From assembly GCA_030390025.1 (NCBI GenBank), contig CM059432.1, positions 27,406,001 to 27,470,000 of the forward strand: a stretch of 64,000 nucleotides of DNA, written 5' to 3'. Position numbers and translations under genes: made by a program. Shown here one piece after another: positions 1-60,944 of the stretch (its first letter is position 1; each line of letters begins with the position of its first letter). Under the pieces are notes generated by a model. That model searched no databases and was not told the DNA's origin. It saw only the letters and a program-made list of their open reading frames with translations. The stretch is from Squalus acanthias (taxonomy: Eukaryota).

Positions 1-45
1 TGATAGTGTAATAGAAGATATCTGATCAGACGCCTGTTATACATT
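1..45. mobile_element. Left arm of a small palindromic MITE, split by the CR1+minisatellite insertion (continues at 13741)
   Basis: 1-42 (tgatagtgtaatagaagatatctgatcagacgcctgttata) is an imperfect reverse complement of ~13797-13839 (tataacaggcatctgttccgatatcggccattttacactatca). Intact relatives at ~16932-17120 and 25490-25671. Confidence 0.7.
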
Positions 46-716
46 GAGTCATAGAGTCATAACGGCTCAGAAAGAGGCCATTCGGCCCATCGAGTCCGTG
101 CCGGCTCTCTGTAGAGCAATCCAGTCAGTCCCATTCCCCCGCTCTATCCCCGTAGCCCTGCAAGTTTATTTCCCTCAAGTACCTATCCAGTCTCCCCTTG
201 AAAACATTGAGTATCTCCGCTTCCACCACTTCCGTTGGCAGCGAATTCCAGGTCATCACCACTTGCTGCGTAAAAAAGTTTTTCCTCACGTCCCCCCTGT
301 ATCTCTTGCCCAAAACCTTAAATCTGTGTCCCCTAGTCCTTGTACCATCAACTACTGGGAACAGCCTTTCCCCGTCTCGCCTATCCAAACCCGTCATAAT
401 CTTGTACACCTCTATCAAGTCGCCCCTCAACCTCCTTTGCTCTAATGAAAATAAATCCAGCTTCTCCAACCTGTCCTTGTAGCTAAGATCCCCCATCCCC
501 GGAACCATTCAGGTAAATCTCCTCTGCACCCTCTCAAGGGCCTTCACATCCTTCTTAAAGTGTGGTGACCAGAACTGGATGCAATACTCCAGTTGTGGCC
601 TAACCAGCGCTTTATAAAGGTTCAGCATAACTTCTCTACTTTTGTACTCAATACCTCTATTTATGAATGAGAAGTCACACAACACCAGGTTATAGTCCAA
701 CAGATTTATTTAAAAT

Positions 717-752
717 TACAAGCTTTCGGAGCTGTCGCTCCTTCTTCAGGTA
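717..752 (-). ncRNA. Mirror copy of the minimal hammerhead motif
   Basis: Exact reverse complement of 787-822 in the left palindrome arm. Confidence 0.7.
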
Positions 753-786
753 GGGTAGCTGTGAGAGAATTCTCTCACAGCTACCC

Positions 787-822
787 TACCTGAAGAAGGA
801 GCGACAGCTCCGAAAGCTTGTA
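787..822 (+). ncRNA. Minimal type I hammerhead ribozyme motif (Penelope-type)
   Basis: TAC-CTGAAGA-A-GGAGC-GACA-GCTCC-GAAA-GC-TT-GTA: CUGANGA and GAAA cores, 5-bp stem II, palindromic mini stem III (AGCT), 3-bp stem I (TAC/GTA). Confidence 0.7.
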
Positions 823-2066
823 ATTTTAAATAAATCTGTTGGACTATAACCTGGTGTTGTGCGACTTCTCATTTTTGTCCACCCCAGTCCAACGCCGGCA
901 TCTCCACATCATGACCTCTATTTATGAAGCCTAAGATCCCATATGCTTTGTTAACCACTCTTTCAATATGTCCTGCCACCTTCAGGGACCTATGCACAAT
1001 AACTCCCAGGTCCCTCTGTCCCTGCACACTCTTTAAAACTGTGCCATTAAGTGTATATTGCCTCTCCCTGTTCCTTCTGCCAAAATGCATCACCTCACAC
1101 TTCTCTGTATTAAATTCCATCTGCCACTTGTCTGCCCATTTTACTAGTCTTTCTATGTCCTGTTGCAGTCGATTGGTATCATCATCACTGTTTGCCACAC
1201 CCCCAAGTTTGGTGTCATCGACAAATTTAGAAATTCTACTCTGCATTCCAATATCCAGGTCATTTATATATATCAAAAAAAGCAGTGGCCCCAGCACTGA
1301 CCCTTGGGGAACACCACTGACTACCATCCTCCAGTCTGAAAAACAGCCATTTACCACAACTCACTGTTTTCTGTCCTTAAGCCAATTCCATATCCAATCT
1401 GCCACTGACCCACCTATTCCGTGAGCCTCAATTTTGTTAACCAGCCTTCTATGTTGTACTTTGTCAAACGCCTTCTGAAAATCCATGTAGACAACATCCA
1501 TTGCATTCCCTTCATCAATCCTCTCTGTTACTTCATCAAAAAATTCAATTAGATTAGTCAAACACGATCTGCCTTTTACAAATCCGTGTTGGCGCTCCTT
1601 AATTAGCTTAAACCTCTCCAAGTGCCCGTTAATTTTTTCCTTGATTATAGTTTCTAAAACTTTACCCACCACTGATGTTAAACTGACCGGCCTGTAGTTA
1701 CTAGGATTGTCCTTACACCCTATTTTGAACAATGGTGTCACATTTGCCACTTTCCAATCCATAGGCACCTCCCCCGCATCTAGGGAAGTTTAGAAAATTA
1801 TGGCAAGCCCTTTCGCTATCTCCTCCCCCAGTTCCCTTAGCAACCTGGGATGCAAGCCACCTGGACCAGGCGACTTGTCCACTCTAAGCATAGCCAGCCT
1901 TTCTAGTACATCCTGTCTATCAATTTTCACCCCTTCCATTGCTTCTAGCTTTTCCACTTCTACCGATATTTTGTCAGCATCCACCTCCTTAGTAAACACC
2001 GATACAAAGTACTCATTGAGTATTCTAGCATTGCCCTGCACCTCTAAGCATATATCACCTTCTTTG

Positions 2067-2431
2067 GACTAGACAGGACTAGACAGACTAGATGCAGGAA
2101 GGATGTTCCCGATGGCGGGGGAGTCCAGAACCAGGGGTCACAGTCTAAGGATAAGGGGTAAGCCATTTAGGACTGAGATGAGGAGGAATTTCTTCACCCA
2201 GAGAGTGGTGAACCTGTGGAATTCTCTACCACAGAAGGTAGTTGAGGCCAACTCATTAAATATATTCAAGAACGAGTTAGATATATTTCTTAAGGCTAAA
2301 GGGATCAAGTGATATGGGGGGAAAGCAGGGACAGGGTACTGAATTTGGATGATCAGCCATGATCTCATTAAATGGCGGAACAGGCTCGAGGGGCCGAATG
2401 GCCTACTGCTCCTATCTTCTATGTTTCTATG
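2067..2431 (+). mobile_element. 5'-truncated CR1 3' end inserted antisense into the host CR1
   Basis: MFPMAGESRTRGHSLRIRG...FFTQRVVNLWNSLP, 3' stem-loop region, (ttctatgt)n tail. Short tttg duplication at 2063-2066 and 2432-2435. Confidence 0.9.
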
Positions 2432-3640
2432 TTTGTCTCTAATAGGCCCCACCCCGCCTCTTACTACCCACTCACTGTTTACATGCTGGGAGAAGATTTT
2501 TGGGTTCCCTTTTATGTTAACCACCATTCTACTCTCATATTCTCTCTTTGCCAATCTTATTTTCATCTTCACATCTCCTCTCAATTTATTGTATTTGTCT
2601 GGTTCTCCCTTGAAGAATTCACCTGACATGCATCATACACCCTCTTTTTTTGTTTCACAACTTCTCTATCTCCCTCGTCATCCAAAGAGTCCTAGCTTTG
2701 GCTCCCTTACCCTTCCCGCTTGTTGGAATGTACCTAGCCTGTACTTGGAACATCTCCTCCTTAAAGATCACCCATTGTTCTGTTACAGTTTTTCCTGTCA
2801 GTCTTTGTTTCCATTTTACTCTGGCTAGATCCTTTCGCATCCCATTGAAGTTAGCCCTACTCCAGTTTAGAAGTTCCACTCTAGATTGTTCCTTGCTCCT
2901 CTCCATTGCTAATCTAAATCTTATGATCCGATGATCACTCGTACCCAAGTGTTCTCCCACAGACACTTGGTCGACCTGGCCCACCTCATTCCCCAGCACC
3001 AGATCCAGCAATGCCTCCTTCCTAGTTGGGCCAAGAACATATTGGTCAAGGAAATTCTCCTGAAGACATTTCAGAAATTCCTCCCCCTCCTTTCCCTTTA
3101 CCCTAGCATTGTCCCAATCGATATTTGGGTAATTAAAGTCCCCCAATATCTATAGCTCTTGTATATCTCTGCGATTTCCCTGCAGATTTGCTCCTCTACC
3201 TCCCTCTCACTATTTGGAGGCCTATAGAATACCCCCAATAGCGTGATCATACCCTTTTTGCTCCTCAACTCTAACCAAATGGATTCTGTCCTTGTCCCCT
3301 CAAGAACATCCTCCCTTTCGAACACTACAATGTCTTCCTTAATCAGCACTGCCACCCCACCTAGCTTTTTTCCTTCCCTATCTTTTCTGAACACCTTGTC
3401 CCCTTGAATATTAAGTGCCCAGTCCTCACCGTTTTTAAGCCATATTTCCGTTATTGCCACAACATCATATTGCCACATGTGCGTTTACGTACATGCATTC
3501 TAAACCCATTTTTGAATTTTTCGTAGTCTTTCTTAAACTGCTCCTATCTAATATGGTACTACTACTGCCTCTAGTACTATCTTCTCTAGTACTATCCAAC
3601 ACAATCACTCTCTTATGCACCTTATTCCTCTTTTCTACTC

Positions 3641-4566
3641 CTATATGCTGGTGCCCATCCCCCTGCCAAGCTGGTTTAAACCCTCCCCAACAGCACTAAC
3701 AAACCTCCCAGCGAGAATATTGGTCCCGGCTCTGTTGAGATGTAACCCGTCCGGCTTGTACAGGTCCCACCTTCCCCAGAAACGGTCCCAATGCCTCAGG
3801 AATCTAAAGCCCTCCCTCCTGCACCATCTCTCCAGCCACACATTCATCTGTTCTATCCTCCTATTCCTGTACTCACTAGCACGTGGCACCGGGAGTAATC
3901 CGGAGATTACTACCTTTGAGGTCCTGCTTTTTAATCTCTCTCATAGCTCCCTAAACTCTGCCTGCAGGACCTCATCTCTCTTTCTCCCTATGTCATTGGT
4001 ACCAATATGGAAACGACCTCTGGCTGTTCACCCTCCCCCCTCAGAGTGTCCTGCAGCCGCTCAGTGACATCCTTGACCCTGGCCGCAGAAACGTCTGTCT
4101 GCTCCCCTAACTATTGAATCCCCTACCACTATTGCACTTCCACTCTTTTTACTCCCCCCCTGTGCAGCAGAGCCACCCGTGGTGCAGTGGACTTGACTCT
4201 GGCTGCACTCCCCAGAGGAACCATCGTCCTCACCAGTACTTAGAACAGAATACTGGTTGGAGAGCGCGATGCACTCCGAGGACTCCTGCACTACCTGCCT
4301 GGTTCTCCTCTTCTGTCTGGCGGTCACCCATTCCCTCTCTGCCTGCATACTCTTAAGCTGCAGGGGTGACCACCTCTAGAAACGTGCTATCCACGTAACT
4401 CTCAGTCTCGTGGATGCACCGCAGTGACTCCAGCCGCCGCTCAAGCTCCGAGTTGCTGTAGTTGGCAACTCTTCCTGCACATGTGGTTGTCCAGGCTACG
4501 CAAAGCATCCAGGACTTCCCACATGGCACAGGATGTGCACTCCACAGGACTGAGCTGCCCTGCCAT
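3641..4566 (-). pseudogene. CR1 ORF1 (Cys-rich zinc finger plus SGNH/GDSL esterase), disrupted
   Basis: MAGQLSPVECTSCAMWEV...CRKSC, AIVVGDSIVRG, RHWDRFWGRWDLYKPDGLHLN. Stops, frameshifts and an apparent internal deletion near 4081. Confidence 0.85.
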
Positions 4567-4567
4567 G

Positions 4568-4752
4568 CCTCTATTTAATAGACTAAAAACTAACCCAGCA
4601 GAAATAAACTTAAACCTTAACAAAAAACACTCCCCAGCTACTCACCAATCAGCTCTTTCCCTCTATTTAATAGGCTATTAACTAACTTAGCAGAAATAAA
4701 TTTATAAACTTAAAAAAAATACACTCAGCAGCTATTCACCAATCAGCTCCTT
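4568..4752. repeat. Two diverged ~90-bp tandem copies in the CR1 5' UTR
   Basis: cctctatttaatag...cagaaataaa...cagcta(c/t)tcaccaatcagctc occurs twice. Confidence 0.7.
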
Positions 4753-4885
4753 CCCTTGTGCCAACGACACTTTTTTTACTCTGACGTCACTTTTTCACAA
4801 ACTGCCTCTGTTGAGTTGCTGCCACTCGGGACTGCTCCTTTTAACTGCTCCGCTCTCACTGTGCTCACACCAAGTCCGCTCCTTC

Positions 4886-7800
4886 CGGTGCTGCTCCCAC
4901 TCTCGGCGCTCTTTGTACCGCTGCCCCCACTCTCGGCGCTCTTTATTCCGCTGCTCCCGCTCTCGGCGCTCTTTATACCGCTGCCCCCACTCTCGGCACT
5001 CTTTATACCGTTGCTCCCGCTCTTGGCGCTCTTTGTGCCGCTGCTCCCGCTCTCGGCACTCTTTATTCCACTGCCCCCGCTCTCGGCGTTCTTTATACCA
5101 CTGCCCCCGCTCTCGGCGCTCTTTATACCGCTGCTCCCGCTCTCGGCGCTCTTTGTTCCACTGCTCCCGCACTCGGCGCTCTTTGTTCCGCTGCTTCCGC
5201 TCTCGGCGCTCTTTGTGCCGCTGACCCGCTCTCGGCGCTCTTTGTGCCGCTGCTTCCGCTCTCGGCGCTCTTTGTGCCGCTGACCCGCTCTCGGCGCTCT
5301 TTGTGCCGCTGCTTCCGCTCTCGGCGCTCTTTGTGCCGCTGACCCGCTCTCGGCGCTCTTTGTGCCGCTGCTTCCGCTCTCGGCGCTCTTTGTGCCGCTG
5401 ACCCGCTCTCGGCGCTCTTTATACTGCAACTCCCGCTCTCGGCGCTCTTTGTTCCACTGCTCCTGCTCTCGGCGCTCTTTATACCGCTGCTCCCACTCTC
5501 GGCGCTCTTTATACCGCTGCTTCCGCTCTCGGCGCTCTTTGTGCCGCTGACCCGCTCTCGGCGCTCTTTGTGCCGCTGCTTCCGCTCTCGGCGCTCTTTG
5601 TGCCGCTGACCCGCTCTCGGCGCTCTTTGTGCCGCTGCTTCCGCTCTCGGCGCTCTTTGTGCCGCTGACCCGCTCTCGGCGCTCTTTGTGCCGCTGCTTC
5701 CGCTCTCGGCGCTCTTTATACTGCAACTCCCGCTCTCGGCGCTCTTTGTTCCACTGCTCCTGCTCTCGGCGCTCTTTATACCGCTGCTTCCGCTCTCGGC
5801 GCTCTTTGTGCCGCTGACCCGCTCTCGGCGCTCTTTGTGCCGCTGCTTCCGCTCTCGGCGCTCTTTGTGCCGCTGACCCGCTCTCGGCGCTCTTTGTGCC
5901 GCTGCTTCCGCTCTCGGCGCTCTTTGTGCCGCTGACCCGCTCTCGGCGCTCTTTGTGCCGCTGCTTCCGCTCTCGGCGCTCTTTGTGCCGCTGACCCGCT
6001 CTCGGCGCTCTTTGTGCCGCTGCTTCCGCTCTCGGCGCTCTTTGTGCCGCTGACCCGCTCTCGGCGCTCTTTATACTGCAACTCCCGCTCTCGGCGCTCT
6101 TTATACCGCTGCTCCCACTCTCGGCGCTCTTTATACCGCTGCTTCCGCTCTCGGCGCTCTTTGTTCCGCTGCTCCCGCTCTCGGAGCTCTTTGTTCCGCT
6201 GCCCCCGCTCTCGGCGCTCTTTGTTCCGCTGCTCCCGCTCTCGGAGCTCTTTATACCGCTGCTCCCACTCTCGGCGCTCTTTGTGTCGCTGCTCCCGCTC
6301 TCGGCACACTTTGTTCTGCTGCTCCCGCTCTCGGCGCTCTTTGTTCCGCTGCTCCCGCTCTTGGCGCTCTTTATATCGCTGCTCCCGCTCTCGGCGCTCT
6401 TTATACCGCTGCTCCCGCTCTTGGCGCTCTTTATATCGCTGCTCCCGCTCTCGGCGCTCTTTATACCGCTGCTCCCGCTCTCGGCACTCTTTATACCGCT
6501 GCTCCCGCTCTCGGCGCTCTTTATACCGCTGCTCCCGCTCTCGGCGCTCTTTATACCGCTGCTCCCGCTCTCGGCGCTCTTTGTTCCGCTGCCCCCGCTC
6601 TCGGCGCTCTTTGTTCCGCTGCTCCCGCTCTCGGAGCTCTTTGTTCCGCTGCCCCCGCTCTCGGCGCTCTTTATACCGCTGCTCCCGCTCTCGGCGCTCT
6701 TTGTTCCACTGCTCCTGCTCTCGGCGCACTTTATACCGCTGCTCCCACTCTCGGCGCTCTTTATACCGCTGCTTCCGCTCTCGGCGCTCTTTGTGCCGCT
6801 GACCCGCTCTCGGCGCTCTTTGTTCCGCTGCCCCCGCTCTCGGCGCTCTTTATTCCGCTGCTTCCGCTCTCGGCGCTCTTTATTCCGCTGCTTCCGCTCT
6901 CGGCGCTCTTTGTTCCACTGCTCCCGCTCTCGGCGCTCTTTGTTCCACTGCTCCCGCTCTCGGCGCTCTTTATTCCGCTGCTTCCACTCTCAGCGCTCTT
7001 TGTTCCGCTGCTCCTGCTCTCGGCGCTCTTTATACCGCTGCTCCCGCTCTCGGCGCTCTTTGTGCCGCTGACCCGCTCTCGGCGCTCTTTGTGCCGCTGC
7101 TTCCGCTCTCGGCGCTCTTTGTGCCGCTGACCCGCTCTCGGCGCTCTTTGTGCCGCTGCTCCCGCTCTCGGCGCTCTTTATTCCGCTGCTTCCACTCTCG
7201 GCGCTCTTTGTGTCGCTGCTCCCGCTCTCGGCGCTCTTTGTTCCGCTGCTCCCGCTCTCGGCGCTCTTTATTCCGCTGCTTCCGCTCTCGGAGCTCTTTG
7301 TTCCACTGCTCCCGCTCTCGGCGCTCTTTGTGTCGCTGCTCCCACTCTCGGTGCTCTTTGTGCCGCTGCTCCCGCTCTCGGCGCTCTTTGTTCCACTGCT
7401 CCCGCTCTCGGCGCTCTTTGTGTCGCTGCTCCCGCTCTCGGCGCTCTTTATTCCGCTGCTTCCACTCTCGGCGCTCTTTGTGTCGCTGCTCCCGCTCTCG
7501 GTGCTCTTTGTGCCGCTGCTCCCGCTCTCGGCGCTCTTTATACCGCTGCTCCCGCTCTCGGCGCTCTTTGTGCCGCTGCTCCCGCTCTCGGCGCTCTTTG
7601 TTCCACTGCTCCCGCTCTCGGTGCTCTTTGTGCCGCTGCTCCCGCTCTCGGCGCTCTTTGTTCCACTGCTCCCACTCTCGGCGCGCTTTATACCGCTGCT
7701 CCCGCTCTTGTCGCTCTTTATACCGCTGCTCCCACTCTCGGCGCTCTTTATACCGCTGCTCCCGCTCTCGGCGCTCTTTGTGCCGCTGCTCCCACTCTCG

Positions 7801-10800
7801 GCGCTCTTTATACCGCTGCTCCCGCTCTCGGCGCTCTTTATACCGCTGCTCCCGCTCTCGGCGCTCTTTGTGCCGCTGCTCCCGCTCTCGGCGCTCTTTG
7901 TTCCACTGCTCCTGCTCTCGGCGCTCTTTATACCGCTGCTTCCGCTCTCGGCGCTCTTTATACCGCTGCTCCCGCTCTCGGCGCTCTTTGTTCCGCTGCT
8001 CCCGCTCTCGGAGCTCTTTGTTCCGCTGCCCCCGCTCTCGGCGCTCTTTATACCGCTGCTCCCGCTCTCGGCGCTCTTTGTTCCGCTGCTCCCGCTCTCG
8101 GCGCGCTTTGTTCCACTGCTCCCGCTCTCGGCGCGCTTTGTTCCGCTGCTCCCGCTCTCGGCGCTCTTTGTTCCACTGCTCCTGCTCTCGGCACTCTTTA
8201 TACCGCTGCTCCCACTCTCGGCGCTCTTTATACCGCTGCTTCCGCTCTCGGCGCTCTTTGTGCCGCTCACCCGCTCTCGGCGCTCTTTGTTCCGCTGCTC
8301 CTGCTCTCGGCGCTCTTTGTTCCGCTGCCCCCGCTCTCGGCGCTCTTTGTGCCGCTGACCCGCTCTCGGCGCTCTTTGTTCCACTGCTCCCACTCTCGGC
8401 GCTCTTTATTCCGCTGCTTCCACTCTCGGTGCTCTTTGTGTCGCTGCTCCCGCTCTCGGCGCTCTTTGTGTCGCTGCTCCCGCTCTCGGCGCTCTTTGTG
8501 TCGCTGCTCCCGCTCTCGGCGCTCTTTGTTCCACTGCTCCTGCTCTCGGCGCTCTTTATACCGCTGCTTCCGCTCTCGGCGCTCTTTATACCGCTGCTTC
8601 CGCTCTCGGCGCTCTTTATACCGCTGCTCCCGCTCTCGGCGCTCTTTATACCGCTGCTCCCGCTCTCGGCGCTCTTTGTTCCGCTGCTCCTGCTCTCGGC
8701 GCTCTTTATACCGCTGCTTCCGCTCTCGGCGCTCTTTATACCGCTGCTTCCGCTCTCGGCGCTCTTTATACCGCTGCTCCCGCTCTCGGCGCTCTTTATA
8801 CCGCTGACCCACTCTCTGCGCTCTTTATACTGCTGCTCCCGCTCTCGGCGCTATTTATACCACTGCTCCCGCTCTCAGCGCTCTTTATATCGCTGACCCG
8901 CTCTCGGCGCTATTTATACCACTGCTCCCGCTCTCGGCGCTCTTTGTGCCGCTGCTCCCGCTCTCGGCGCTCTTTGTTCCGCTGCTCCCGCTCTCGGCGC
9001 TCTTTGTGCCGCTGCTCCCGCTCTCGGCGCTCTTTGTTCCACTGCTCCCGCTCTCGGCGCTCTTTGTTCCGCTGACCCGCTCTCGGCGCTCTTTATACCG
9101 CTGCTCCCGCTCTCGGCGCTCTTTGTTCCACTGCTCCCGCTCTCGGCGCTCTTTGTTCTGCTGCTCCCGCTCTCGGCACTCTTTGTGCCGCTGCTCCCGC
9201 TCTCGGCGCTCTTTGTGCCGCTGCTCCCGCTCTCGGCACTCTTTGTGCCGCTGCTCCCGCTCTCGGCGCTCTTTGTTCTGCTGCTCCCGCTCTCGGCACT
9301 CTTTGTGCCGCTGCTCCCGCTCTCGGCTCTCTTTGTGCCGCTGCTCCCGCTCTCGGCGCTCTTTGTGCCGCTGCTCCCGCTCTCGGCTCTCTTTGTGCCG
9401 CTGCTCCCGCTCTCGGCGCTCTTTGTGCCGCTGCTCCCGCTCTCGGCGCTCTTTGTTCTGCTGCTCCCGCTCTCGGCACTCTTTGTGCCGCTGCTCCCGC
9501 TCTCGGCACTCTTTGTTCTGCTGCTCCCACTCTCGGCGCTCTTTGTTCTGCTGCTCCCGCTCTCGGCACTCTTTGTGCCGCTGCTCCCGCTCTCGGCGCT
9601 CTTTGTTCTGCTGCTCCCGCTCTCGGCGCTCTTTGTGCCGCTGCTCCCGCTCTCGGCTCTCTTTGTGCCGCTGCTCCTGCTCTCGGCGCTCTTTGTTCCG
9701 CTGCTCCCGCTCTCAGCGCTCTTTGTTCCGCTGCTCCCGCTCTCGGCGCTCTTTATACCGCTGCTCCCGCTCTCGGCGCTCTTTGTTCCGCTGCTCCCGC
9801 TCTCGGCGCTCTTTATACCGCTGCTCCCGCTCTCGGCGCTCTTTGTTCCGCTGCTCCCGCTCTCGGCGCTCTTTGTTCCGCTGCTCCCGCTCTCGGCGCT
9901 CTTTGTTCCGCTGCTCCCGCTCTCGGCGCTCTTTGTGCCGCTGCTCCCGCTCTCGGCACTCTTTGTTCCGCTGCTCCCGCTCTCGGCGCTCTTTGTTCCG
10001 CTGCCCCCGCTCTTGGCGCTCTTTGTTCCGCTGCTCCCGCTCTCGGCGCTCTTTGTTCCGCTGCCCCCGCTCTTGGCGCTCTTTATTCCGCTGCTCACGC
10101 TCTCGGCGCTCTTTGTTCCGCTGCTCCCGCTCTCGGCGCTCTTTGTTCTGCTGCTCCCACTCTCGGCGCTCTTTATACCGCTGCTCCCGCTCTCGGCGCT
10201 CTTTGTTCCGCTGCCCCCGCTCTTGGCGCTCTTTATACCGCTGCTCCCGCTCTCGGCGCTCTTTATACCGCTGCTCCCGCTCTCGGCGCTCTTTATACCG
10301 CTGCTCCCGCTCTCGGCGCTCTTTATACCGCTGCTCACGCTCTCGGCGCTCTTTATACCGTTGCTCCCACTCTCGGCGCTCTTTGTTCCGCTGCTCCCGC
10401 TCTCGGCGCTCTTTGTTCCACTGCTCCCGCTCTCGGCGCTCTTTATACCGCTGCTCCCGCTCTCGGCGCTCTTTATACCGCTGCTCCCGCTCTCGGCGCT
10501 CTTTATACCGCTGCTCCCACTCTCGACACTCTTTATATCGCTGACCCGCTCTCGGCGCTCTTTATACCACTGCTCACGCTCTCGGCGCTCTTTATACCGC
10601 TGCTCCCACTCTCGACACTCTTTATATCGCTGACCCGCTCTCGGCGCTCTTTGTTCCGCTGACCCGCTCTCAGCGCTCTTTATACCGCTGCTCCCGCTCT
10701 CAACACTCTTTGTTCCACTGCTCCCGCTCTCGGCGCTCTTTATTCCGCTGCTCCCGCTCTCGGCGCTCTTTATTCCGCTGCTCCCGCTCTCGGCGCTCTT

Positions 10801-13740
10801 TATACCGCTGCTCCCGCTCTCAGCACTCTTTGTTCCACTGCTCCCACTCTCGGCGCTCTTTATACCGCTGCTCCCGCTCTCGGCGCTCTTTGTGCCGCTG
10901 CTCCCGCTCTCGGCGCTCTTTATTCCGCTGCTCCCGCTCTCGGCGCTCTTTATACCGTTGCTCCCGCTCTCAGCGCTCTTTATTCCGCTGCTCCCGCTCT
11001 CGGCGCTCTTTATTCCGCTGCTCCCGCTCTCGGCGCTCTTTATACCGTTGCTCCCACTCTCGGCGCTCTTTGTTCCACTGCTCCCGCTCTCGGCGCTCTT
11101 TATACCGTTGCTCCCACTCTCGGCGCTCTTTGTTCCGCTGCTCCCGCTCTCGGCGCTCTTTGTTCTGCTGCTCACGCTCTCGGCGCTCTTTGTTCTGCTG
11201 CTCACGCTCTCGGCGCTCTTTGTTCTGCTGCTCACGCTCTCGCCGCTCTTTGTTCTGCTGCTCACGCTCTCGGCGCTCTTTATACCGCTGCTTCCGTTCT
11301 CGGCGCTCTTTATATCGCTGACCCGCTCTCGGCGCTCTTTATCCCGCTGCCCCCGCTCTCGGCGCTCTTTGTTCCACTGCTCCCGCTCTCGGCGCGCTTT
11401 ATTCCACTGCTCCCGCTCTCGGCGCTCTTTGTTCCGCTGCCCCCGCTCTTGGCGCTCTTTATACCGCTGCTCCCGCTCTCGGCGCTCTTTGTTCCGCTGC
11501 TCCCGCTCTCGGCGCTCTTTATACCGCTGCTCCCGCTCTCGGCGCTCTTTGTTCCGCTGCTCCCGCTCTCGGCGCTCTTTGTTCCGCTGCTCCCGCTCTC
11601 GGCGCTCTTTGTTCCGCTGCTCCCGCTCTCGGCGCTCTTTATACCGCTGCTCCCGCTCTCGGCGCTCTTTGTTCCGCTGCTCCCGCTCTCGGCGCTCTTT
11701 ATACCGCTGCTCCCGCTCTCAGTGCTCTTTGTTCTGCTGCTCACGCTCTCGGCGCTCTTTATACCGCTGCTCCCGCTCTCGGCGCTCTTTGTGCCGCTGC
11801 TCCCGCTCTTGGCGCTCTTTATAGCGCTTCTCCCGCTCTCAGCGCTCTTTGTTCCGCTGCTCCCGCTCTCGGCGCTCTTTATACCGCTGCTCCCACTCTT
11901 GGCGCTCTTTATACCGCTGCTCCCGCTCTCGGCACTCTTTGTTCTGCTGCTCCCGCTCTCGGCACTCTTTGTGCCGCTGCTCCCGCTCTCGGCTCTCTTT
12001 GTGCCGCTGCTCCTGCTCTCGGCGCTCTTTGTTCCGCTGACCCGCTCTCGGCGCTCTTTGTTCCGCTGACCCGCTCTCGGCGCTCTTTGTTCCACTGCTC
12101 CCGCTCTCGGCGCTCTTTATACCGCTGCTCCCGCTCTCGGCGCTCTTTGTTCCGCTGCTCCCGCTCTCGGTGCTCTTTGTGCCGCTGCTCCCGCTCTCGG
12201 CGCTCTTTATTCCGCTGCTCCTGGTCTCGGCGCTCTTTGTGCCGCTGCTCCCGCTCTAGGCGCTCTTTATACCGTTGCTCCCGCTCTCGGCGCTCTTTAT
12301 ACCGCTGCTCCCGCTCTCGGCGCTCTTTATACCGCTGCTCCCGCTCTCGGCGCTCTTTATACCACTGCTCCCGCTCTCGGCGCTCTTTGTTCTGCTGCTC
12401 CCGCTCTCGGCGCTCTTTGTGCCGCTGCTCCCGCTCTCGGCGCTCTTTATACCGCTGCTCCCGCTCTCGGCGCTCTTTATACCGCTGCTCCTGCTCTCGG
12501 CGCTCTTTGTTCTGCTGCTCCCGCTCTCGGCGCTCTTTGTTCTGCTGCTCCCGCTCTCGGCGCTCTTTATATCGCTGACCCGCTCTCGGCGCTCTTTATA
12601 CCACTGCTCCCGCTCTCGGCGCTCTTTATACCGCTGCTCCCGCTCTCGGCGCTCTTTATACCGCTGCCCCCCGCTGTCGGCGCTCTTTGTTCTGCTGCTC
12701 CCGCTCTCGGCGCTCTTTATACCGCTGCTCCCGCTCTCGGCGCTCTTTGTTCCGCTGCCCCCGCTCTTGGCGCTCTTTATACCGCTGCTCCCGCTCTCGG
12801 CGCTCTTTATACCGCTGCTCCCGCTCTCGGCGCTCTTTATACCGCTGCTCCGCTCTCGGCGCTCTTTATACCGCTGCTCACGCTCTCGGCGCTCTTTATA
12901 CCGTTGCTCCCACTCTCGGCGCTCTTTGTTCCGCTGCTCCCGCTCTCGGCGCTCTTTGTTCCACTGCTCCCGCTCTCGGCGCTCTTTATACCGCTGCTCC
13001 CGCTCTCGGCGCTCTTTATACCGCTGCCCCCCGCTGTCGGCGCTCTTTGTTCTGCTGCTCCCGCTCTCGGCGCTCTTTATACCACTGCTCCCGCTCTCGG
13101 CGCTCTTTGTTCTGCTGCTCCCGCTCTCGGCGCTCTTTATACCGCTGCCCCCCGCTGTCGGCGCTCTTTGTTCTGCTGCTCCCGCTCTCGGCGCTCTTTA
13201 TACCGCTGCCCCCCGCTGTCGGCGCTCTTTGTTCTGCTGCTCCTGCTCTCGGCGCTCTTTATACCGCTGCTCCCGCTCTCGGCGCTCTTTATACCGCTGC
13301 CCCCCGCTGTCGGCGCTCTTTGTTCTGCTGCTCCCGCTCTTGGCGCTCTTTATACCACTGCTCCCGCTCTCGGCGCTCTTTGTTCTGCTGCTCCCGCTCT
13401 CGGCGCTCTTTATACCGCTGCTCCTGCTCTCGGCGCTCTTTGTTCCGCTGCTCCCGCTCTCGGCGCTCTTTGTTCCACTGCTCCCGCTCTCAGCGCTCTT
13501 TATACCGCTGCTCCCGCTCTCGGCGCTCTTTATACCGCTGCTCCCGCTCTCGGCGCTCTTTGTTCCGCTGCTCCCGCTCTCGGCGCTCTTTGTTCCGCTG
13601 CTCCCGCTCTCGGCGCTCTTTGTTCCGCTGCTCCAGCTCTCGGCGCTCTTTGTTCCGCTGCTCCCGCTCTCGGCGCTCTTTGTTCCGCTGCTCCCGCTCT
13701 CGGCGCTCTTTGTTCCACTGCTCCCGCTCTCGGCGCTCTT
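4886..13740. repeat. ~8.9-kb 30-bp GC/CpG-rich minisatellite (about 295 units by length/30)
   Basis: Consensus CCGCTGCTCCCGCTCTCGGCGCTCTTT(GTT/ATA/GTG/ATT), with 29-bp (CTGACCCG) and 31-bp (CCCCCCGCTGTC) variants. Confidence 0.99.
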
Positions 13741-13850
13741 TCTCTATCCTGATTTTAATTTTCCTTAACTTCAATGGAAATTAAAATCGGCAGAGTTATA
13801 ACAGGCATCTGTTCCGATATCGGCCATTTTACACTATCAGAATTATCCCC
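13741..13850. mobile_element. Centre and right arm of the split palindromic MITE
   Basis: gattttaattttcc...ggaaattaaaatc internal hairpin and right arm ending aattatcccc; resembles the centre of the 16932-17120 element. Confidence 0.7.
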
Positions 13851-13874
13851 ATTGAGTCTATCATCCCCGGGAAT

Positions 13875-15149: not shown

Positions 15150-16127
15150 CATCAGAAGCTTGGTCAAAGAGGTGGGTTTTATGAAGGGTTTTAAAAGGAG
15201 GAGAGGGAGATTCAGAGGTGGAAATATTAGGGAAGGAATTCCAGAGCGTGGGGCCTATGTGGCTGAAAGTATGCCTGCCAATAGTGAGATAAAGGTGTGG
15301 GGGCAATGCAAAAGAGCCAGAGTCAGAGGAATGGAGAGTTTCGGGGGTGGAAATGATGGGGTTATAGAGCTGGAGGAAATTACAGAGATAGGGAGGGGTG
15401 AGGGCATGCAGGGATTTAAATAGATGGATAAGAATTTTAAAATTGAGGCATTGGGGGATCATAAACCAATGTAGATCAGCAAGGACAGGGTGACGTGTGA
15501 TAGGATATGGCAGTAAAGTTTTAGAATAGAGAATCATACAGCACAGGAAGCCATTTGGCCCATCGTCCCTGTGCCAGCTCTTTGAAGGACCTATTCAATT
15601 AATCCCACTCCCCCTGCTCTTGCCCCATAGCCCTGAAAATTTTTCCTTTTTAAATATATCAGCTTCTCTAGTCTCTCCACATAACTGAAGTCTCTTATTT
15701 GGATGAACTGAAGTTGGAGGATGGGAGACTGGGCAGGAAAGCATCGGAATAGTTCGGTTTGGAGATGACAAAGACATGGATGACAGTTCCAGCAGCAGAT
15801 GGGCTGAGGTTGGGCTGAAGGCAGGTGATGTCACAGAGGTGGAAGTAGACGTTCTTTGTGATGGAGAGGATATGGGATCGGAAGCTCAGCTACTGGGCGA
15901 ATATGATGCTGAGATTAAAAAAACACCTGGTTCAGCTAAGATAATGGCTGGGAAAGGGGATGGAGTCGGTGATGAAGGCACAGAGATTGTGGTGGAAGCT
16001 GAAGATGATGGTTGAACATTGGACAAGTGGAAAGATCTGGTGGAACTGGATGTCGACAGCTTAAGCTGTAGATGATGTTTCCAAGGGGCAGCATGCAGAG
16101 GAAGGGGCCATGGTTAAATACAAAGGT
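15150..16127 (-). mobile_element. Old L2-type LINE RT C-terminal fragments, with a short CR1 tail inserted at ~15525-15660
   Basis: HPVLADLHWFMIPQCLNFKILIHLFKSLHALTPPYL and FKTLHKTHLF resemble the L2 ORF2 C-terminus. Confidence 0.7.
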
Positions 16128-16130
16128 AAT

Positions 16131-16853
16131 GGGCCAGAAATTCGGCTCTCCGGCTTCCTGCGGGTGCAAGCGTACTTACCTACCGCGCCTGCCGTTGTGC
16201 TTCGGGCCCACGAGGAATTTGGCTCCTGGGCCTCCTGCAGCTGCCGGCGCGCAGTGCTTGCGTGTCCCAGGGGCGCAGTTAGTTCGAAGCGTCCCCTGGG
16301 ATCACGTGGGCCATGGAGAGCCAATCGGAGCAGGGCATTTTCATTCATAGATTTGACAGGAAGACCCCAAAACCACACTTAAACTTCAAATACATTTTTT
16401 TTTTAAATCACATTTTTAAAATAACTATAAGTTACATAAATTAACTACTTTAAACAAAAATTAAAATTTTTGAAAAAATTAATTATACTTTTTAACGGTG
16501 CTAAAAATAAACTTACCTTTCTTTAAAGTATCTAAAAAAGATAAACCTGTTGAAAGAATGTTTAAATTGTAATTAATTAACCACTTACCTTGTTAAAAAC
16601 AGGCCTTGCGCCTCCTTTTTAAAAGTGCAGCTTCTCCGTACTTACCCTCAAGGAGAAACCTGAAAAAAAAAGTTCGCTGCGTGCGCGCAGCCTCTACCGC
16701 GCACGCGTTCGACCTCTGAACCCCTTCCTTCAGGGGAACGGAAGTTCCGGTTTCCAGCGCATGCGCAGTGCATGCGTGAAACCGGCACTTTCGTTAGGTC
16801 TACGGGTGAGTACACAGCGCGTACTCACCCGTGGAGGGCCGAATTTCTGGCCC
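16131..16853. mobile_element. Harbinger-like MITE, family A
   Basis: Perfect 16-bp TIR GGGCCAGAAATTCGGC, AAT TSD (16128-16130, 16854-16856). Closely similar to 37572-38333. Confidence 0.9.
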
Positions 16854-16931
16854 AATGCGGAGGTAACAGTGCGGATGTGGGAAGACTACAGAGGTAACAG
16901 TGCAGAATGGTTGGCATGCTGTGGGGTTAAT

Positions 16932-17120
16932 TGGGGGTAATTTTGACTTGGTAATTTTGATTTGATAAAACGGGTGATAGCGAATCGAAAGCCCCTTTTA
17001 CATCTCTCCCAATTTTTATTTCTATTGAAGTCAAAGGAAATAAAAATCGGGAGAGATGTAAAACGAGCTGCTGACTTCTATTACTTATTTTGCACTATCC
17101 AACAAAGTCCAGATCTACCG
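16932..17120. mobile_element. Old small palindromic MITE
   Basis: Central hairpin tttacatctctcccaatttttattt...aaataaaaatcgggagagatgtaaa; left end ggggtaattttg. Confidence 0.65.
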
Positions 17121-17527: not shown

Positions 17528-17647
17528 GTATTGGTCCTTAGCCCAAATTTTTTTAAGTATGTTTATGACAACTGGAACGCGCATCATGGGAGATACTGCT
17601 CGACTGGGATGCTGGTCACAGTTTTTGCACTTCATGTCTGTGATGAG
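17528..17647 (+). CDS. ST3GAL1: Penultimate coding exon of a beta-galactoside alpha-2,3-sialyltransferase (ST3GAL1-like), sialylmotif S
   Basis: Acceptor ttttcag, donor GAG|gtaaat, 120 nt, phase 0: [40 protein letters not shown]. Confidence 0.88.
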
Positions 17648-20962: not shown

Positions 20963-21136
20963 GTGAATGTTTACGGATTCGGTGCCAATGACTTAGGACA
21001 CTGGCATCATTACTGGGAGAAGAGTACTATCGGAGGAGCCTTTCGAGTGACAGGAGTTCATGATGGAGATTTTGAAGCCAATATCACTAAGACCCTTGCC
21101 AATGTTCATAAAATAAATTTCTTTAAAGGCACTTAA
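20963..21136 (+). CDS. ST3GAL1: Last coding exon of the ST3GAL1-like sialyltransferase (motif S end, motif III, motif VS, stop)
   Basis: Acceptor ttttgcactgcag; VNVYGFGANDLGHWHHYWEKSTIGGAFRVTGVHDGDFEANITKTLANVHKINFFKGT*. The C-terminus (GAFR..TLA..KI..FKG) resembles ST3GAL1 more than ST3GAL2. Confidence 0.9.
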   Translation: MNVYGFGANDLGHWHHYWEKSTIGGAFRVTGVHDGDFEANITKTLANVHKINFFKGT

Positions 21137-21772: not shown

Positions 21773-22402
21773 GGCCCAAAAATTAGTGAGTGAGCCTTCG
21801 TGCGAGGGTAAGGCTTCCCCGCGATCTCTCACTGCGCGCTGGCTTTTTTATTCCCAGCTCGCACGAACTTGATGTTCTGGACAGCAGCTGTGCAGGGCTT
21901 TCGTATCCCACAGGCGCAGTTAATTCGTGCGAGCTGTGGGATCACGTGATTCAGTTAGAGCCAATGGCAGCACACCATCTTTCATAGCTTTCACTGTGAA
22001 AGCTATGAATACTATGCCCCCCCAAAAGAACAGCTAAACCTCAATTAAATTTTAAAAAAAACCATCACATTAATAAAATAAGTATAGTTAAATAAATTAA
22101 CCTGTTGAAAAAATTCAAAATAATACTTAATTAACTACTTACCTTGTTAACAGAGGGTCTTACGCCTCCTTTCTTTATGTGTAAAATGTTCCATGCTTAC
22201 CTGCGCGTTCAAAGCACTAAGTGCACTGCGTGCGCGCAGCCTGTAGCGTGCACGCAGTTCACCTAGGAACCGCCCCCTTTTGAAATCACCAAGTGCCGGT
22301 TTTCAGCGCATGCGCAGTGCATGCAGAAAACCGGCAATTGGAGACAGAATACGCGAGAGTACACAGTGCGTACTCTCGCGTAGCGGCACTAATTTTTGGG
22401 CC
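21773..22402. mobile_element. Harbinger-like MITE, family A2
   Basis: Perfect 16-bp TIR GGCCCAAAAATTAGTG, ATT TSD; internal architecture as in family A. Confidence 0.9.
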
Positions 22403-25400
22403 ATTGAATTGATCAAGGCTTTAAATGTATCATGAGGATTCAAGAATGCTGATTGACAGATGGCAATTTGTCAAATTTCTTCCAGCATTAGCATGTTGTA
22501 TTCAAACAATGAGACAATTTTTATTTTATAAAGAGGCTAAGATATTTAATCGAACGTGGTGTTGTGTCAGAACAACACTCAGTACTACACTGAAATTTAG
22601 TTAAACATATGCCTAGAAGCTCCCCAGAATGGCACAGTGCATGAAAATATCATCAGGTGTAACACTCACCCGGTTCCATCACTGAGTTAACTAATCTAAG
22701 CAGAATAATTGGCTTCAGAGTCCCGGACAACAGAAGAGAAACACCAGCCTGGGCATATCTTTCAATCGCTGTCCAGTCACCCCTACTTCAAATTGTGCAA
22801 CATTGGGTGAGGATAAGATCAGGGCTTGGCTGTGATTCCAGTACAGTGGAAAAGCCTGCTGATGTTCACTGTCTAGACTTGCACTTGGGCGAGGTTACCG
22901 AGAGTTGTCAGCATCATGGAATCATATCCCAGAGAGTCTCTATGCCATTCGGGGGAGGAGGGGAAGAAATGGGTGGGTGCGAAGAGGAAGAGACCCAGTC
23001 CTCATGTGAAACTCCTCTGTGCCAATAGCTTTAAAAAATGTCATTGTCTTCATGAAGAACTGATTGTTAAACCTTTTCTCATTTGCTTACAAACTAAACA
23101 ATGCAGTGAGGTAAATCACGTTGGAAGGCACCATCATATCACTTACACCCAATATTATGAACCACTGCCACCAAATTAAAATGTTCAGGTGTTCTACTTT
23201 TTCCCTAAAGTCCATAGACCTTTAAGTCCCATTACATTGGTGTCCTGAAAGACTCCTGATCTAATTATGGTATTTCTTCAGGTGAGGTACATTATAGGAA
23301 TTAGACTTCATTCAGAGCTATATCTATTTGGGGGTGATGGGGAGGTTATAATCGGTTGTCCTTCCCGGTCATGATCGATTATCAAGTCTGCTACGAATTG
23401 GTCATACAACCTATTTTCATTCTAATTTCCAAGGTGTTGGCTCTCTTGAGGACTCGGTGGGTAAGTGCACTGTGGAGGCACATAGCCAGGAAGACAAGAG
23501 GGTTCAATCCCCATTCAGATTTCATCTCAGGTGATACAATGGGTGCTACCGTTGGACTTGGTGCCTCCGGGTAAGAGAGTAACTCAGCCAGGATTCTTGC
23601 TCCTGTTCACTATATTGCTGAAAAGTGTGCTCTTGTGGCTGTTGGGTGAAGACAGGATCAGGTTTGGCTGAGATGCTTCCCCATGGTCAAAGTAGCTGGC
23701 CTGCACTCACTGTCAAGGCTCACACATGAAGAATGGCCGGTTGGGCATTCGAATCCTGTGGAAACCGCACTCCAGCAGAAGTTACCTCCACTCCTGAAAA
23801 ATTGTCAAGACAATTGGGTGTTCCACCAACATTTTGGCCAGCCTTTTTCTCTTGTTGATGGGCAGTAATGGTGGGAGCTGTCTAAATAGTCATGCCAAGC
23901 CTTTAGTAGACCTGAAACTGAGACAGGAGAATGTCCTACACCGACAGAATGAAAGCTGAAAAAAAACTACCTCTTAGACCGAAAACTGGACTTCTGAAAA
24001 GAAACAAATCCAAATGATCCTCATTTTAAGAGACCAAATTGCCTTAAACAGGCTGTAAGATGCACTCAATGACTGGTGTGGTGGAGCAGCAGCCAATCAG
24101 AGAGGAGAAGGGATGTCTTGTAATAATGTTTCGCAGTTTTATGAGCCATTGGGTAGGCTAAAGTCCTGGAAAAAGATGCTTGAAGATGGTTAAGTTGGAG
24201 CTGATGGGCGTCAGTAATTTGTGCTGCAATCTATATGTGTGTGTATGTGTGCACATGAAGTTTAAAAATGTTTATTTAGTTTGTGTTAGCTTATCTCAGT
24301 AATAGTAAGGGCATGACAATGGGCCTCAATTAAAATGAGCTGACCACAGATCATCGTGTGAGGTCAGCTCATTTGTGCATAGGATTATTATATACATGAT
24401 GTGTATTACTATTGTCCCCTCACTGTCACTTGGGGAGCGTGTCAGAGGGCAGATAGCACCCATGGAACTCTACCCCAGCATGGGTCAGAGCCTTGATGAT
24501 GGAAGGCGAACATTGCAGGGAGGATATAAAGGGTGATCCCTCCATCCCGCTCCTCCTTGCAGGGCTCCCACCCTCCGAGGGAGCGCAAGTCAAAGTTAGG
24601 TCTACAGCAAGGTTGGCCTTATTTTCCAACCCAAACTGCTCCACACACTGGGTGTCACGAGGAGTGTGGAGTTAGCCCTATAGACCTAGGAAGTGGGAAG
24701 TTGTTGAATGTAATTAAATTAATTATTTAAGTGGAAGGATGCTGCCTGAACCGAAGGCTTTCCAGCTTGAACTAATGCCAAGGTAGGTGAAGAGGGCCAG
24801 TGAGTTAAGGGCCCAGATTTTTGAGGAGTTGAAAAGTGGAACTGAAGGGGGAAAAAAATTCTGAATTCTCTTTTACACAGTCCCCTACTTTTGTATCTCA
24901 AAATGGCCACTTCAAAAGGAACCCGACAATAGAATTCCTTTAATATTCTGATCACAAAACTGGCCTCGTTTTTAATATAGAATCCCATCTTTTCAACTAT
25001 TTCTGTTGAATTGCAATATCTGTGGTCTAGGTGTCACCTTCGACTCCACCAGGGTCTTACCTCCTTTAGATAATAAGTCTGACCCAAGTGGATGTGGTAC
25101 TTTATCACCAATTAAATTAAGACCAAAGCAGTTCGATCTCCCAGATGGCTCAGTTCGTAAATGGACTGTGGCGCTGAGCCATTCAGACCAGGACAGTTCC
25201 AGCTTTGAATACTTGTTCTGTGCTGAATAAAGGTGAGCTCAGCAGTATGGTGGCAGCAACACTGGAAGTGACCTCACTGCCCCGGAGGTGGACGGAGGAA
25301 GAATCAGCAAGGGTTCTGATTCTGATCAATGTCCAGTTAGACCCTGCTGCAAGGTACTGAAGTCAGGCTCAGCCGTGCACTACCGCCACTGCAGTAAACG

Positions 25401-25489: not shown

Positions 25490-25671
25490 GGGGGTCATTT
25501 TGATTTTGGGCGATAGAGTAAAAGGGGCGATATTGATCCGGCTGCCCATTGTGCATCTCTCATGATTTTCATTTCCACTGAAGACGGCTGAAATGAAACC
25601 CGGGACAGATGTAAAACGGAGGCTGAATCCATAGCGCCGTTTTACACTCACCGAAATTCAAAATTTGCCCC
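25490..25671. mobile_element. Small palindromic MITE inserted in a SINE-like repeat
   Basis: Ends gggggtcattttgatttt / aaattcaaaatttgcccc, AGT duplicated on both sides. Confidence 0.75.
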
Positions 25672-31605: not shown

Positions 31606-32349
31606 GGCCCAGAAATTGATCTCGCTCTGTTCCCGCATGGGTAAGCCTTCCCCGCGATGTCTCACCTCGCTTATGCTTTTTCTGATCCAGCTCGCACGAA
31701 CTTGATGTTCCAGACATCAGCTGTGCTGGGCTTGCGTATCCCAGCAGCGCAGTTAATTCGTGCGAGCTGTGGGATCACGTGACTCAGTTAGAGCCAATGG
31801 CAGCACACTATCTTCCATTCATAAGTCTCACAGCATAGCTGTGAGACTTATGAATCTTACACCCCCCCAAAATAACAGCTAAACCTCAATTAAATTTAAA
31901 AAAAAACACATCACATTAATAAAATAAGTATAGTTAATTAAATTAACCATTTTAAATAAAAAATTAAATTTTTGAAAAAATTTAAAATCTTTTAAAAAGT
32001 TATAAAAATAAACTTACCTGTCTTTAAAGTCTATAAAAAAGATATACCTGTAAAAAAAAATTCAAAAAAATACTTAATTCACTACTTACCTTCTTAAAAG
32101 CGGGTCTTACTCCTCCTTTTTACATTTCCAAAATCTTCCCTACTTACCTGCGCGTCCAAAGCATGAAGTGCACAGCGTGCGCGCAGCCTGTAGCGCGCAC
32201 GCGATGCACTCAAGCCACGCCCCCTTTTCGGAAGAGCAATTGCCGGTTTTCAGCGCATGCGCAGGGCATGCAGAAAACCGACAATTGGAGTGGGAATACG
32301 CGAGAGTACGCAGTGCGTACTCTCGCGTCGCGGGATCAATTTTCGGCCC
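31606..32349. mobile_element. Harbinger-like MITE, family A2
   Basis: Imperfect TIRs GGCCCAGAAATTGATCTCGC / GCGGGATCAATTTTCGGCCC, flanked by AAT/ATT; interior similar to 21773-22402. Confidence 0.85.
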
Positions 32350-32655
32350 ATTGCATTTGCATTTGTGGCTTTTACCATCAAGTTAATCTTGTTAGTTGCT
32401 ATCCACCATGTATTTTTGCATTGTAGACAAATATATACAATGTTCAACACACTGGAAGGGTTTTCTGGGAAGCTATGAAAGAGCTCAACTAAAGTCTCCT
32501 GACATTTAACCAAGTCAGTTCTTGAAAGTACCTCATAACTCTCCAAATGTAAAAGAACAGCACAATCAGTAAAAGGCATCATCCATAAATCATTAAATCA
32601 AAACCTATTAAAAATGATACAAGAACATGAAAAATAGCAGGAAATTTTATACATA

Positions 32656-41989: not shown

Positions 41990-42064
41990 TAATACTAATA
42001 TCTTTCAGTTCTTCATTCTCGCTAGACCCTTGGTTGTCCACTATTTTGTGAAGACAGACAAAAA

Positions 42065-44388: not shown

Positions 44389-44619
44389 AGGGCAGTGTCC
44401 CAAGAGGAACAATCCTTTGGGAGTTTAGAGGCACATCTTTCGGCATGTCCACATGTAGAAGAGGCCTGAAAGCTATACACCCTGTCCCTGTTGACCTCCT
44501 GTATCGGGGCCACTTTAAATATTTTAAAAAATTGTGTCCCTGATCCCAGCCTGGATCCCCAAATGGGTCCCAATTCTGCCAAGTGTCAGCAAGATTTCAT
44601 TGAAGTCAAGCATAGCTGT

Positions 44620-45600: not shown

Positions 45601-45606
45601 TTGCAA

Positions 45607-49738: not shown

Positions 49739-49746
49739 GTATTTCT

Positions 49747-60936: not shown

Positions 60937-60944
60937 GTATTTCT

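What the first reader, a model, noticed from the sequence alone, without database searches (positions are those of the whole stretch)
1..13850. A 9-kb minisatellite forms the 5' end of a CR1 LINE; the whole 13.7-kb block splits one small MITE
Seen: the array abuts the CR1 5' UTR (~4885). The DNA left of the CR1 tail (1-45) and right of the array (13741-13850) rejoins into one palindromic MITE (..cctgttatacat|ctctatcctgatttt..), like the intact copy at 16932-17120. So the array lies inside the LINE insertion. Established: some LINEs, e.g. mouse L1, use tandem 5' monomers as internal promoters. Inference: this CR1 family carries 30-bp CpG-rich 5' monomers that expanded to ~295 copies, making the LINE a seeder of large VNTRs or CpG islands, here in an intron of a host gene.
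Basis: partly seen in the sequence, partly recalled or inferred. Interest (0 to 1): 0.75.

Follow-up and report, generated by a model that had tools for sequence, protein, structure and literature searches.

The report
Nine-kb minisatellite capping a shark LINE
A decayed jumping gene (CR1 LINE) in a likely shark or ray genome begins with about 296 copies of a 30-base repeat, a third of them holding a TATA word; the repeat is likely the element's own promoter-type front unit, which likely grew from a few copies to 9 kb after the element landed.

Summary
Observation confirmed. A 30-bp x 295.8 array (4890-13741) abuts the 5' UTR of a full-length, decayed, minus-strand CR1 (46-4889).

Public contigs show the UTR-to-30-mer junction in two other organisms, one with about 2 units and then unlike sequence. 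Other copies carry other 5' units (about 50 and 80 bp), so the 30-mer is one of several 5' modules.

107 of 295 unit boundaries spell TATAAA on the LINE strand. The element starts 33 nt after a TATA register, behind one extra G (cap-like).

The array is younger than the element (0.7% private changes against about 5% decay) and mutates like methylated DNA, so 'CpG island' is not supported.

Verdict: an L1Md-like 5' monomer of a CR1 subfamily, expanded in place. Promoter activity is untested and the empty site unseen. This scan has noted the same layout with other monomers (43-226 bp) on other DNA, including this genome.

The parts
1..44 (.). Left arm of the split palindromic MITE-like element (its outer end lies before the window)
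46..61 (-). CR1 3' tail, two 8-bp units; base 45 is unassigned
161..3475 (-). CR1 ORF2 (endonuclease plus RT), broken: 6 stops and frame changes against P0036
668..913 (.). Nested palindromic insertion (208-bp palindrome) with a 15-bp target duplication at 653-667 and 914-928; later than the CR1. The Penelope-like label comes from scan notes and recall
2073..2433 (+). Nested 3' fragment of another CR1-type element, opposite orientation
3550..4566 (-). CR1 ORF1 (ATG 4566; SGNH/esterase-like part at 3719-3940), frameshifted; downstream end approximate
4567..4889 (-). 5' UTR 'tether': 92-bp duplication 4568-4756 with CCAAT and splice-donor-like words, a CRE word at 4789, an ETS word at 4888; 4819-4889 is one copy of the core of an alternative ~80-bp 5' unit
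4890..13741 (-). 30-bp minisatellite, 295.8 copies, 88 unit types; 107 of 295 boundaries read TATAAA on the LINE strand; CpG observed/expected 1.27
13742..13743 (-). 5' junction: one G on the LINE strand (13742) that neither the monomer nor the MITE arms explain (candidate cap-derived G), and one base (13743) that can be a 1-bp target duplication of base 44
13744..13852 (.). Remainder of the split MITE-like element
16932..17110 (.). Intact copy of the same palindromic family (reference)
25490..25670 (.). Second intact copy of the family (reference)
17528..17647 (+). ST3GAL1-like sialyltransferase, second-last coding exon (host gene)
20963..21136 (+). ST3GAL1-like sialyltransferase, last coding exon

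Best explanation
A full-length, decayed CR1 LINE with a 30-bp tandem array at its 5' end sits inside a small palindromic element; the 30-mer is likely this CR1 subfamily's own promoter-type 5' unit, likely inserted as a few copies and then likely expanded in place to about 296 by slippage or unequal exchange. Inferred mechanism: a unit's TATA would start a capped transcript 31-33 nt downstream, at the next unit boundary, so each new copy would lose the firing TATA but keep the units behind it. The observed start at +33, behind an extra G, fits this. After the LINE died, the array would have drifted as a neutral, methylated minisatellite. Shown: anatomy, TATA count, junction, relative homogeneity. 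Inferred: promoter function, the cap origin of the G, the starting copy number and the expansion mechanism. About 0.75 for 'own 5' unit, expanded in place'; about 0.4 for the TATA relay.
For: (1) The flanks rejoin in register as one element. The left piece is closer to its own partner arm (score 45) than to the 4 intact arms (15-20). (2), table 8 shows 32 rows, with 25,421 more not shown. 2 records bridge 4889/4890 by the tool's 31-letter rule: organism H 4771-4943 with 19 other letters, then 204 unaligned letters, i.e. about 2 units ending 1 nt from the same register; and organism B 4782-4964 with 21 other letters. A third record, from organism A (4791-4916, 11 other letters), has only 27 letters on the array side. 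(3) The array and the adjoining UTR are weakly alike: score 39, reached by 0 of 1219 window tiles and 27 of 2000 dinucleotide shuffles. (4) TATAAA occurs 107 times on the LINE strand and 0 times on the other, 12.1 per kb against 0.4 per kb elsewhere. The 5' end is a pyrimidine/purine step 33 nt after the TATA register, one of 3 such steps at +26 to +36 (spacing limits from PMC1779604 passages). (5) There is an extra G at the junction; full-length L1 insertions typically show a cap-derived G (PMC11702581 passage). (6) Age: the UTR/ORF1 stretch differs from the X2 majority at 25 sites in 510 bp (4.9%) and ORF2 holds 6 stops. The array has 0.7% private changes, 83% of units have an identical twin, and an 8-unit run recurs identically. 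Ageing 295 identical units by 4.5% gave at most 60% twins and 5-unit runs in 60 of 60 simulations.
Against: The 30-mer is not universal. 21 contigs in X5 leave at 4889 into heterogeneous DNA, and joints 4889-to-4819 (+9 nt) in X2, X6 and X17 and 4887-to-4844 (+6 nt) in X6 show other units. The bridging contigs in organisms B and H could be this same locus in relatives rather than independent insertions. Only 36% of boundaries keep TATA, the 6 outermost do not, and TATA units cluster instead of alternating (53 adjacencies against 38.4 expected). A +31 pyrimidine/purine step exists in TATA-to-TATA pairs and is the preferred spacing in mouse. The extra base can also be read as a mutated 2-bp target duplication or a private indel. 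Ageing of 2% is not excluded by the simulation, and at 3% the run length is not either. The 4.9% figure compares with a mix of subfamilies and uses 40 of 195 rows. No expression data and no empty site were seen.
Confidence: 0.7

Rival explanations
1. The 30-mer is the LINE's own 5' repeat, but its TATA word is a passenger. Transcription is driven by the ETS/CRE/CCAAT tether or from outside, and the array is simply an unstable GC-rich repeat that grew.
For: 64% of boundaries lack TATA and TATA units cluster. The UTR carries ETS, CRE and CCAAT words. Scan notes list giant arrays grown from CR1 ORF2 slices in this genome (not tested here), so expansion needs no promoter role.
Against: The start register is +33 with an extra G, and a second copy ends within 1 nt of it. 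TATA-type boundaries appear in monomer loose ends of organisms A and H (table 7).
Confidence: 0.35
2. The array arose only at this locus, by duplication of a short UTR motif after insertion, and is not a family trait.
For: The monomer resembles the adjoining UTR. The bridging contigs in B and H might be orthologues. No other 30-mer-headed copy lies in the window.
Against: Summed contig depth on the monomer is 1e5-1e6 in X2, X5 and X6, against 10-90 for listed single contigs, far more than 296 units give. The tool warns that this is no copy number, so it is a hint only. One organism-A contig crosses the junction with 11 differences in 125 letters.
Confidence: 0.1
3. A free-standing satellite family was joined to the CR1 5' end, by template switch at insertion, later recombination or an assembly misjoin.
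For: The monomer is very abundant relative to the UTR: depth ratios 8.1, 16.6, 5.4 and 1.6 in X2, X5, X6 and X17 (a hint only). Many copies of the UTR lack it.
Against: The flanks rejoin in register and share private letters. The same junction occurs in other organisms. The array orientation puts TATA on the LINE strand only.
Confidence: 0.1
4. The whole 9-kb array was retrotransposed with the LINE as cargo (SVA-like VNTR carriage).
For: The 5' junction looks like a completed full-length insertion.
Against: The array is far more homogeneous than the element's age allows. Indel variants are repeated locally (one 29-mer 16 times, one 31-mer 5 times), so units were copied after mutating. A diverged copy has about 2 units.
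Confidence: 0.05

Closest known systems
Mouse L1Md monomer promoters (A, Gf, Tf plus tether); PMC5381506 and PMC6454616, passages read
   Same: Tandem CpG-rich units at the 5' end of a LINE, joined to ORF1 by a tether of about 250-320 bp; variable copy number; alternative 5' modules within one lineage; common 5' start sites within the unit.
   Different: CR1 clade, not L1; unit 30 bp, not about 200 bp; TATA word rather than YY1/AP-1 sites; 296 units against at most 10 in 99% of mouse promoters; activity untested here.
5' direct repeats in CR1-group elements: the 32-bp direct repeat of turtle and pufferfish CR1 (as cited in a PMC2734521 passage) and 1-5 subunits of 100-500 bp near the 5' UTR of ORF1-less elements (PMC13343379 legend)
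   Same: Same clade, same position, and for turtle and pufferfish a similar unit length.
   Different: Here the element has an esterase ORF1, a TATA-bearing unit and a kb-scale expansion. I did not compare sequences with the turtle or pufferfish repeat.
Drosophila HeT-A/TAHRE tandem promoters (PMC2615633 passages)
   Same: A promoter upstream of the start site drives the next unit in a tandem array.
   Different: There the promoter is the 3' UTR of a whole neighbouring element at telomeres; here it would be a 30-bp internal unit at a dispersed site.
TE-derived minisatellites and satellites (review PMC9659126, passages and table)
   Same: A TE segment grows into a tandem array inside or beside its parent.
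   Different: The listed CR1 case (chicken HinfI) comes from ORF2 and the 3' UTR; no 5'-monomer case for CR1 appears in the passages seen.

Membership tests
Canonical CR1 LINE | ORF2 with AP endonuclease and RT | tested here: met
   RVT_1 hits; tblastn of P0036 (with Exo_endo_phos domains) covers residues 56-949
Canonical CR1 LINE | Esterase-type ORF1 | tested here: met
   Lipase_GDSL_2 E 2.3e-7, 31.9 bits against cut-off 32.9, on a 74-aa piece; feature per PMC13343379
Canonical CR1 LINE | 3' end in short tandem repeats, no poly(A), little or no target duplication (recalled; poly-A limited to Zenon per PMC13343379) | tested here: met
   Two 8-bp units at 46-61; target duplication of at most 1-2 bp
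Canonical CR1 LINE | RT phylogeny inside the CR1 clade | tested here: inconclusive
   No tree built; top RT hits are bird, turtle and chondrichthyan RT proteins, none named CR1
L1Md-type 5' monomer promoter | Tandem units at the extreme 5' end, joined to ORF1 by a tether | tested here: met
L1Md-type 5' monomer promoter | Units shared by independent copies of the family | tested here: inconclusive
   2 bridging contigs in other organisms, orthology not excluded; other copies carry other units
L1Md-type 5' monomer promoter | Additive promoter activity of the units | not testable with these tools
   No reporter or start-site data
L1Md-type 5' monomer promoter | L1-clade host element | tested here: not met
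   Host has an esterase ORF1 and a microsatellite tail; it works like L1Md monomers at most and is not a member
CpG island (unmethylated) | GC above 55% and CpG observed/expected above 0.65 (thresholds recalled) | tested here: met
   GC 63.5%, o/e 1.27
CpG island (unmethylated) | Protection from germline methylation and deamination | tested here: not met
   79 deamination-type changes in 8 CpG columns against 23 in 11 other C/G columns among 79 distinct 30-mers, which are not independent
MITE | Short, non-coding, inverted arms, multi-copy | tested here: met
   3 copies in the window, about 72% alike, palindromic
MITE | Target duplication and link to a transposase family | not tested
   The outer left end lies before the window; no family library was available

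The most novel reading that the evidence does not exclude
The 30-mer is the shortest possible self-renewing TATA relay promoter. Its period equals the TATA-to-start distance, so each unit fires at the next unit's boundary, every retrotransposition spends one unit, and tandem instability regrows the stack. The by-product is a LINE that scatters seeds of multi-kilobase minisatellites through shark genomes, with lineage-specific run-away expansion.
Probability: 0.3. Interest if true: 0.72.

Novelty: new variant of a known kind. Interest (0 to 1): 0.52.

Why it matters
LINEs are thought to need internal, TATA-less promoters because copying from RNA loses upstream sequence. A TATA unit with a 30-bp period would be a different and very compact solution, and it predicts an exact, testable start register. 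It would also tie a major repeat class of sharks and rays (CR1-group elements are 22-34% of elasmobranch genomes; PMC13343379 passage) to the birth of dispersed kb-scale minisatellites. The split MITE gives both ends of one event, so insertion and later expansion can be dated separately. If the TATA is a passenger, this remains a clean but ordinary case of a TE-derived minisatellite.

Tried and rejected
No whole genome is held, so no genome-wide census of the 30-mer could be made.

The empty site in relatives was not seen, and no read or contig evidence on the 13741 junction was obtained.

No RNA holder was listed on record; this is no evidence on expression.

The monomer pattern gave 0 matches in metagenome contigs. 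An ORF1 search there gave 2 loci out of 433 candidates, and neither matched the LINE at DNA level.

Scan look-ups by sequence and by relatives found no look-alike windows.

A 60-bp TATA-plus-initiator dimer was rejected: TATA units cluster. A canonical TATA in the ~80-bp alternative unit was not found with at most 1 mismatch in 4819-4889, so none is claimed.

The 3' UTR fold was not better than shuffles (z 0.24), so it is not used as evidence. The bacterial promoter scan is irrelevant to this DNA. Long open frames in the array are taken as a by-product of a 30-bp stop-free unit; they were not tested further.

Literature searches listed no paper on TATA-bearing 5' monomers or monomer-grown arrays in shark CR1. 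The library lacks most subscription papers and Repbase reports, and no supplements were read.

Full report
Observation. The window opens with a minus-strand LINE at 46-4889 followed directly by a tandem array at 4890-13741 (period 30, 295.8 copies, 89% matches). The LINE has an ORF1 starting at 4566 with an SGNH/esterase-like part and an ORF2 with endonuclease and RT. It ends in two 8-bp tail units. It is full length but dead: 6 stops and frame changes against P0036, and two later insertions at 668-913 (15-bp target duplication) and 2073-2433. This is the anatomy of a canonical CR1 (PMC13343379 passages); I built no tree. The neighbouring gene is an ST3GAL1-like sialyltransferase, and 9 of its 10 hits are named, all from sharks and rays. 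Only its last two coding exons lie in the window, so the block is inferred to be intronic and antisense.

The split element. Bases 1-41 match the reverse complement of 13797-13839 at 81%. Of 5000 random tiles, 1 scored as well, and it lies in the intact copy at 17 kb. The left piece resembles its own partner arm (score 45) more than the four arms of two intact copies (15-20), as expected for two halves of one palindrome. This also argues against an assembly misjoin. Against 4 of 4 intact arms the left piece ends at 44 and the right piece resumes at 13744. Base 13743 can be a 1-bp target duplication. Base 13742 is a G on the LINE strand that neither the monomer nor the arms supply. Full-length L1 insertions typically carry such a cap-derived G (PMC11702581, one passage). 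A mutated 2-bp duplication or a private indel would explain it too. The empty site itself was not seen.

Does the monomer belong to the LINE family? The UTR is highly repetitive in all four. Table 8 shows 32 rows, with 25,421 more not shown. One is in organism H (4771-4943, 19 other letters); it then runs on for 204 unaligned letters, so it has about two units and ends 1 nt from the register at which the window's array ends. The other is in organism B (4782-4964, 21 other letters). A record from organism A with 11 differences crosses the junction with only 27 letters beyond it. Orthology cannot be excluded for B and H. Against universality: 21 contigs in X5 leave at 4889 into mixed sequence, and joints show alternative tandem units of about 80 bp (X2, X6, X17) and about 50 bp (X6). 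The family therefore swaps 5' modules, and the 30-mer is one of them. Monomer-to-UTR depth ratios are 8.1, 16.6, 5.4 and 1.6, a hint of lineage-specific amplification; the tool states that such depths are not copy numbers. The monomer is weakly like the adjoining UTR (0 of 1219 tiles and 27 of 2000 shuffles reach the score).

What the unit looks like. After scan notes on other shark CR1s suggested it, I tested for TATA. On the LINE strand 107 of 295 unit boundaries read TATAAA, with none on the other strand. The element starts at a pyrimidine/purine step 33 nt after the TATA register. Such steps occur at +28, +31 and +33 only. Mouse data give -30/-31 as optimal and -33/-34 as tolerated when no nearer step exists (PMC1779604 passages). 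About 3 of 30 registers would have fitted, so one locus is modest evidence; the extra G and the organism-H end add a little. Against a maintained function: 64% of boundaries and the 6 outermost lack TATA, and TATA units cluster rather than alternate.

Timing. The UTR/ORF1 stretch differs from the X2 majority at 25 sites in 510 bp (from the 40 of 195 rows shown, and a mix of subfamilies). Six ORF2 stops in about 900 codons fit roughly 5% decay (my estimate, using a recalled 4% nonsense share). In the array, 83% of units have an identical twin, private changes are 0.7% per base, an 8-unit run recurs identically, and indel variants are repeated 16 and 5 times. Starting generously from 295 identical units, ageing at 4.5% never reached these values in 60 runs. 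At 3% the twin fraction was not reached but the run length was; 2% is not excluded. Most of the array is thus likely younger than the insertion. Nearby units are only slightly more alike than distant ones (2.5-2.7 against 3.0-3.1 differences). CpG observed/expected is 1.27 against 0.39 in the LINE body, but CpG columns carry about 4.7-fold more deamination-type changes. The CpG richness is therefore likely renewed by turnover in methylated DNA, not protected as an island.

Mechanism. Most likely a capped, full-length transcript of a CR1 subfamily headed by a few 30-mers inserted into the MITE-like element. The LINE then decayed while the GC-rich units expanded by slippage or unequal exchange to 8.85 kb (0.75). 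The units probably served as a relay promoter, each TATA starting the RNA at the next boundary (0.4). The main rival keeps the first part and treats TATA as a passenger.

Comparison. It works like mouse L1Md monomers plus tether (PMC5381506, PMC6454616 passages; 99% of those promoters have at most 10 monomers) but is not a member: different clade, unit and motif. 5' repeats in CR1-group elements are already on record: a 32-bp direct repeat in turtle and pufferfish CR1 (PMC2734521 passage) and 1-5 subunits in ORF1-less elements (PMC13343379 legend). The upstream-fires-downstream logic is known from HeT-A (PMC2615633 passages). TE-derived minisatellites are common (PMC9659126 passages). Searches listed no paper on TATA monomers or monomer-grown arrays in shark CR1, within a library that lacks most subscription journals. 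This scan has noted the same layout before with 43-226-bp units, including 8.8-kb and 40-kb arrays in this genome. Those are unchecked notes and I do not count them as support.

Verdict. It is a new variant of a known kind. What is special is a unit as short as the TATA-to-start distance, a cap-like junction, and both ends fixed by a split host element. Interest 0.52.

Noticed in passing
window 42140-52802 and 53716-64000: A recent ~11.2-11.6-kb tandem duplication, 99.2-99.3% identical; a segmental duplication or an uncollapsed haplotype.
   Followed up: no
window ~49250-51750 and its duplicate ~60450-62950: An internally deleted retrovirus-like remnant: an open frame at 50476-51261 with a weak retroviral protease hit (E 7e-4, below cut-off), flanked on both sides by 784-bp GC-rich palindromic repeats (48463-49246, 51758-52529; 96% alike).
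   Followed up: partly
window 32868-34775: Tigger/pogo-type transposase (CENP-B_N, HTH_Tnp_Tc5, DDE_1) interrupted by a single stop, with ~250-bp inverted copies at 32654-32904 and 41741-41991.
   Followed up: partly
window 653-928: 208-bp perfect palindrome with a 15-bp target duplication inside CR1 ORF2; a scan note calls it a hammerhead-bearing, Penelope-like insertion.
   Followed up: partly
window 4568-4756: 92-bp duplication in the CR1 5' UTR, each copy with a CCAAT word followed by a splice-donor-like word; one search lists joints that skip 97-128 bases here in DNA contigs, possibly copies made from spliced RNA or with one unit fewer.
   Followed up: no
window 4819-4889 (joints): Other copies of this CR1 family repeat this stretch plus 9 nt as an ~80-bp unit; depth there is raised in organism B, suggesting an array of a different monomer.
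   Followed up: partly
window 16127-16856, 21806-22410, 31639-32357, 37568-38336: A second family of longer palindromic non-coding elements, 70-89% alike.
   Followed up: no
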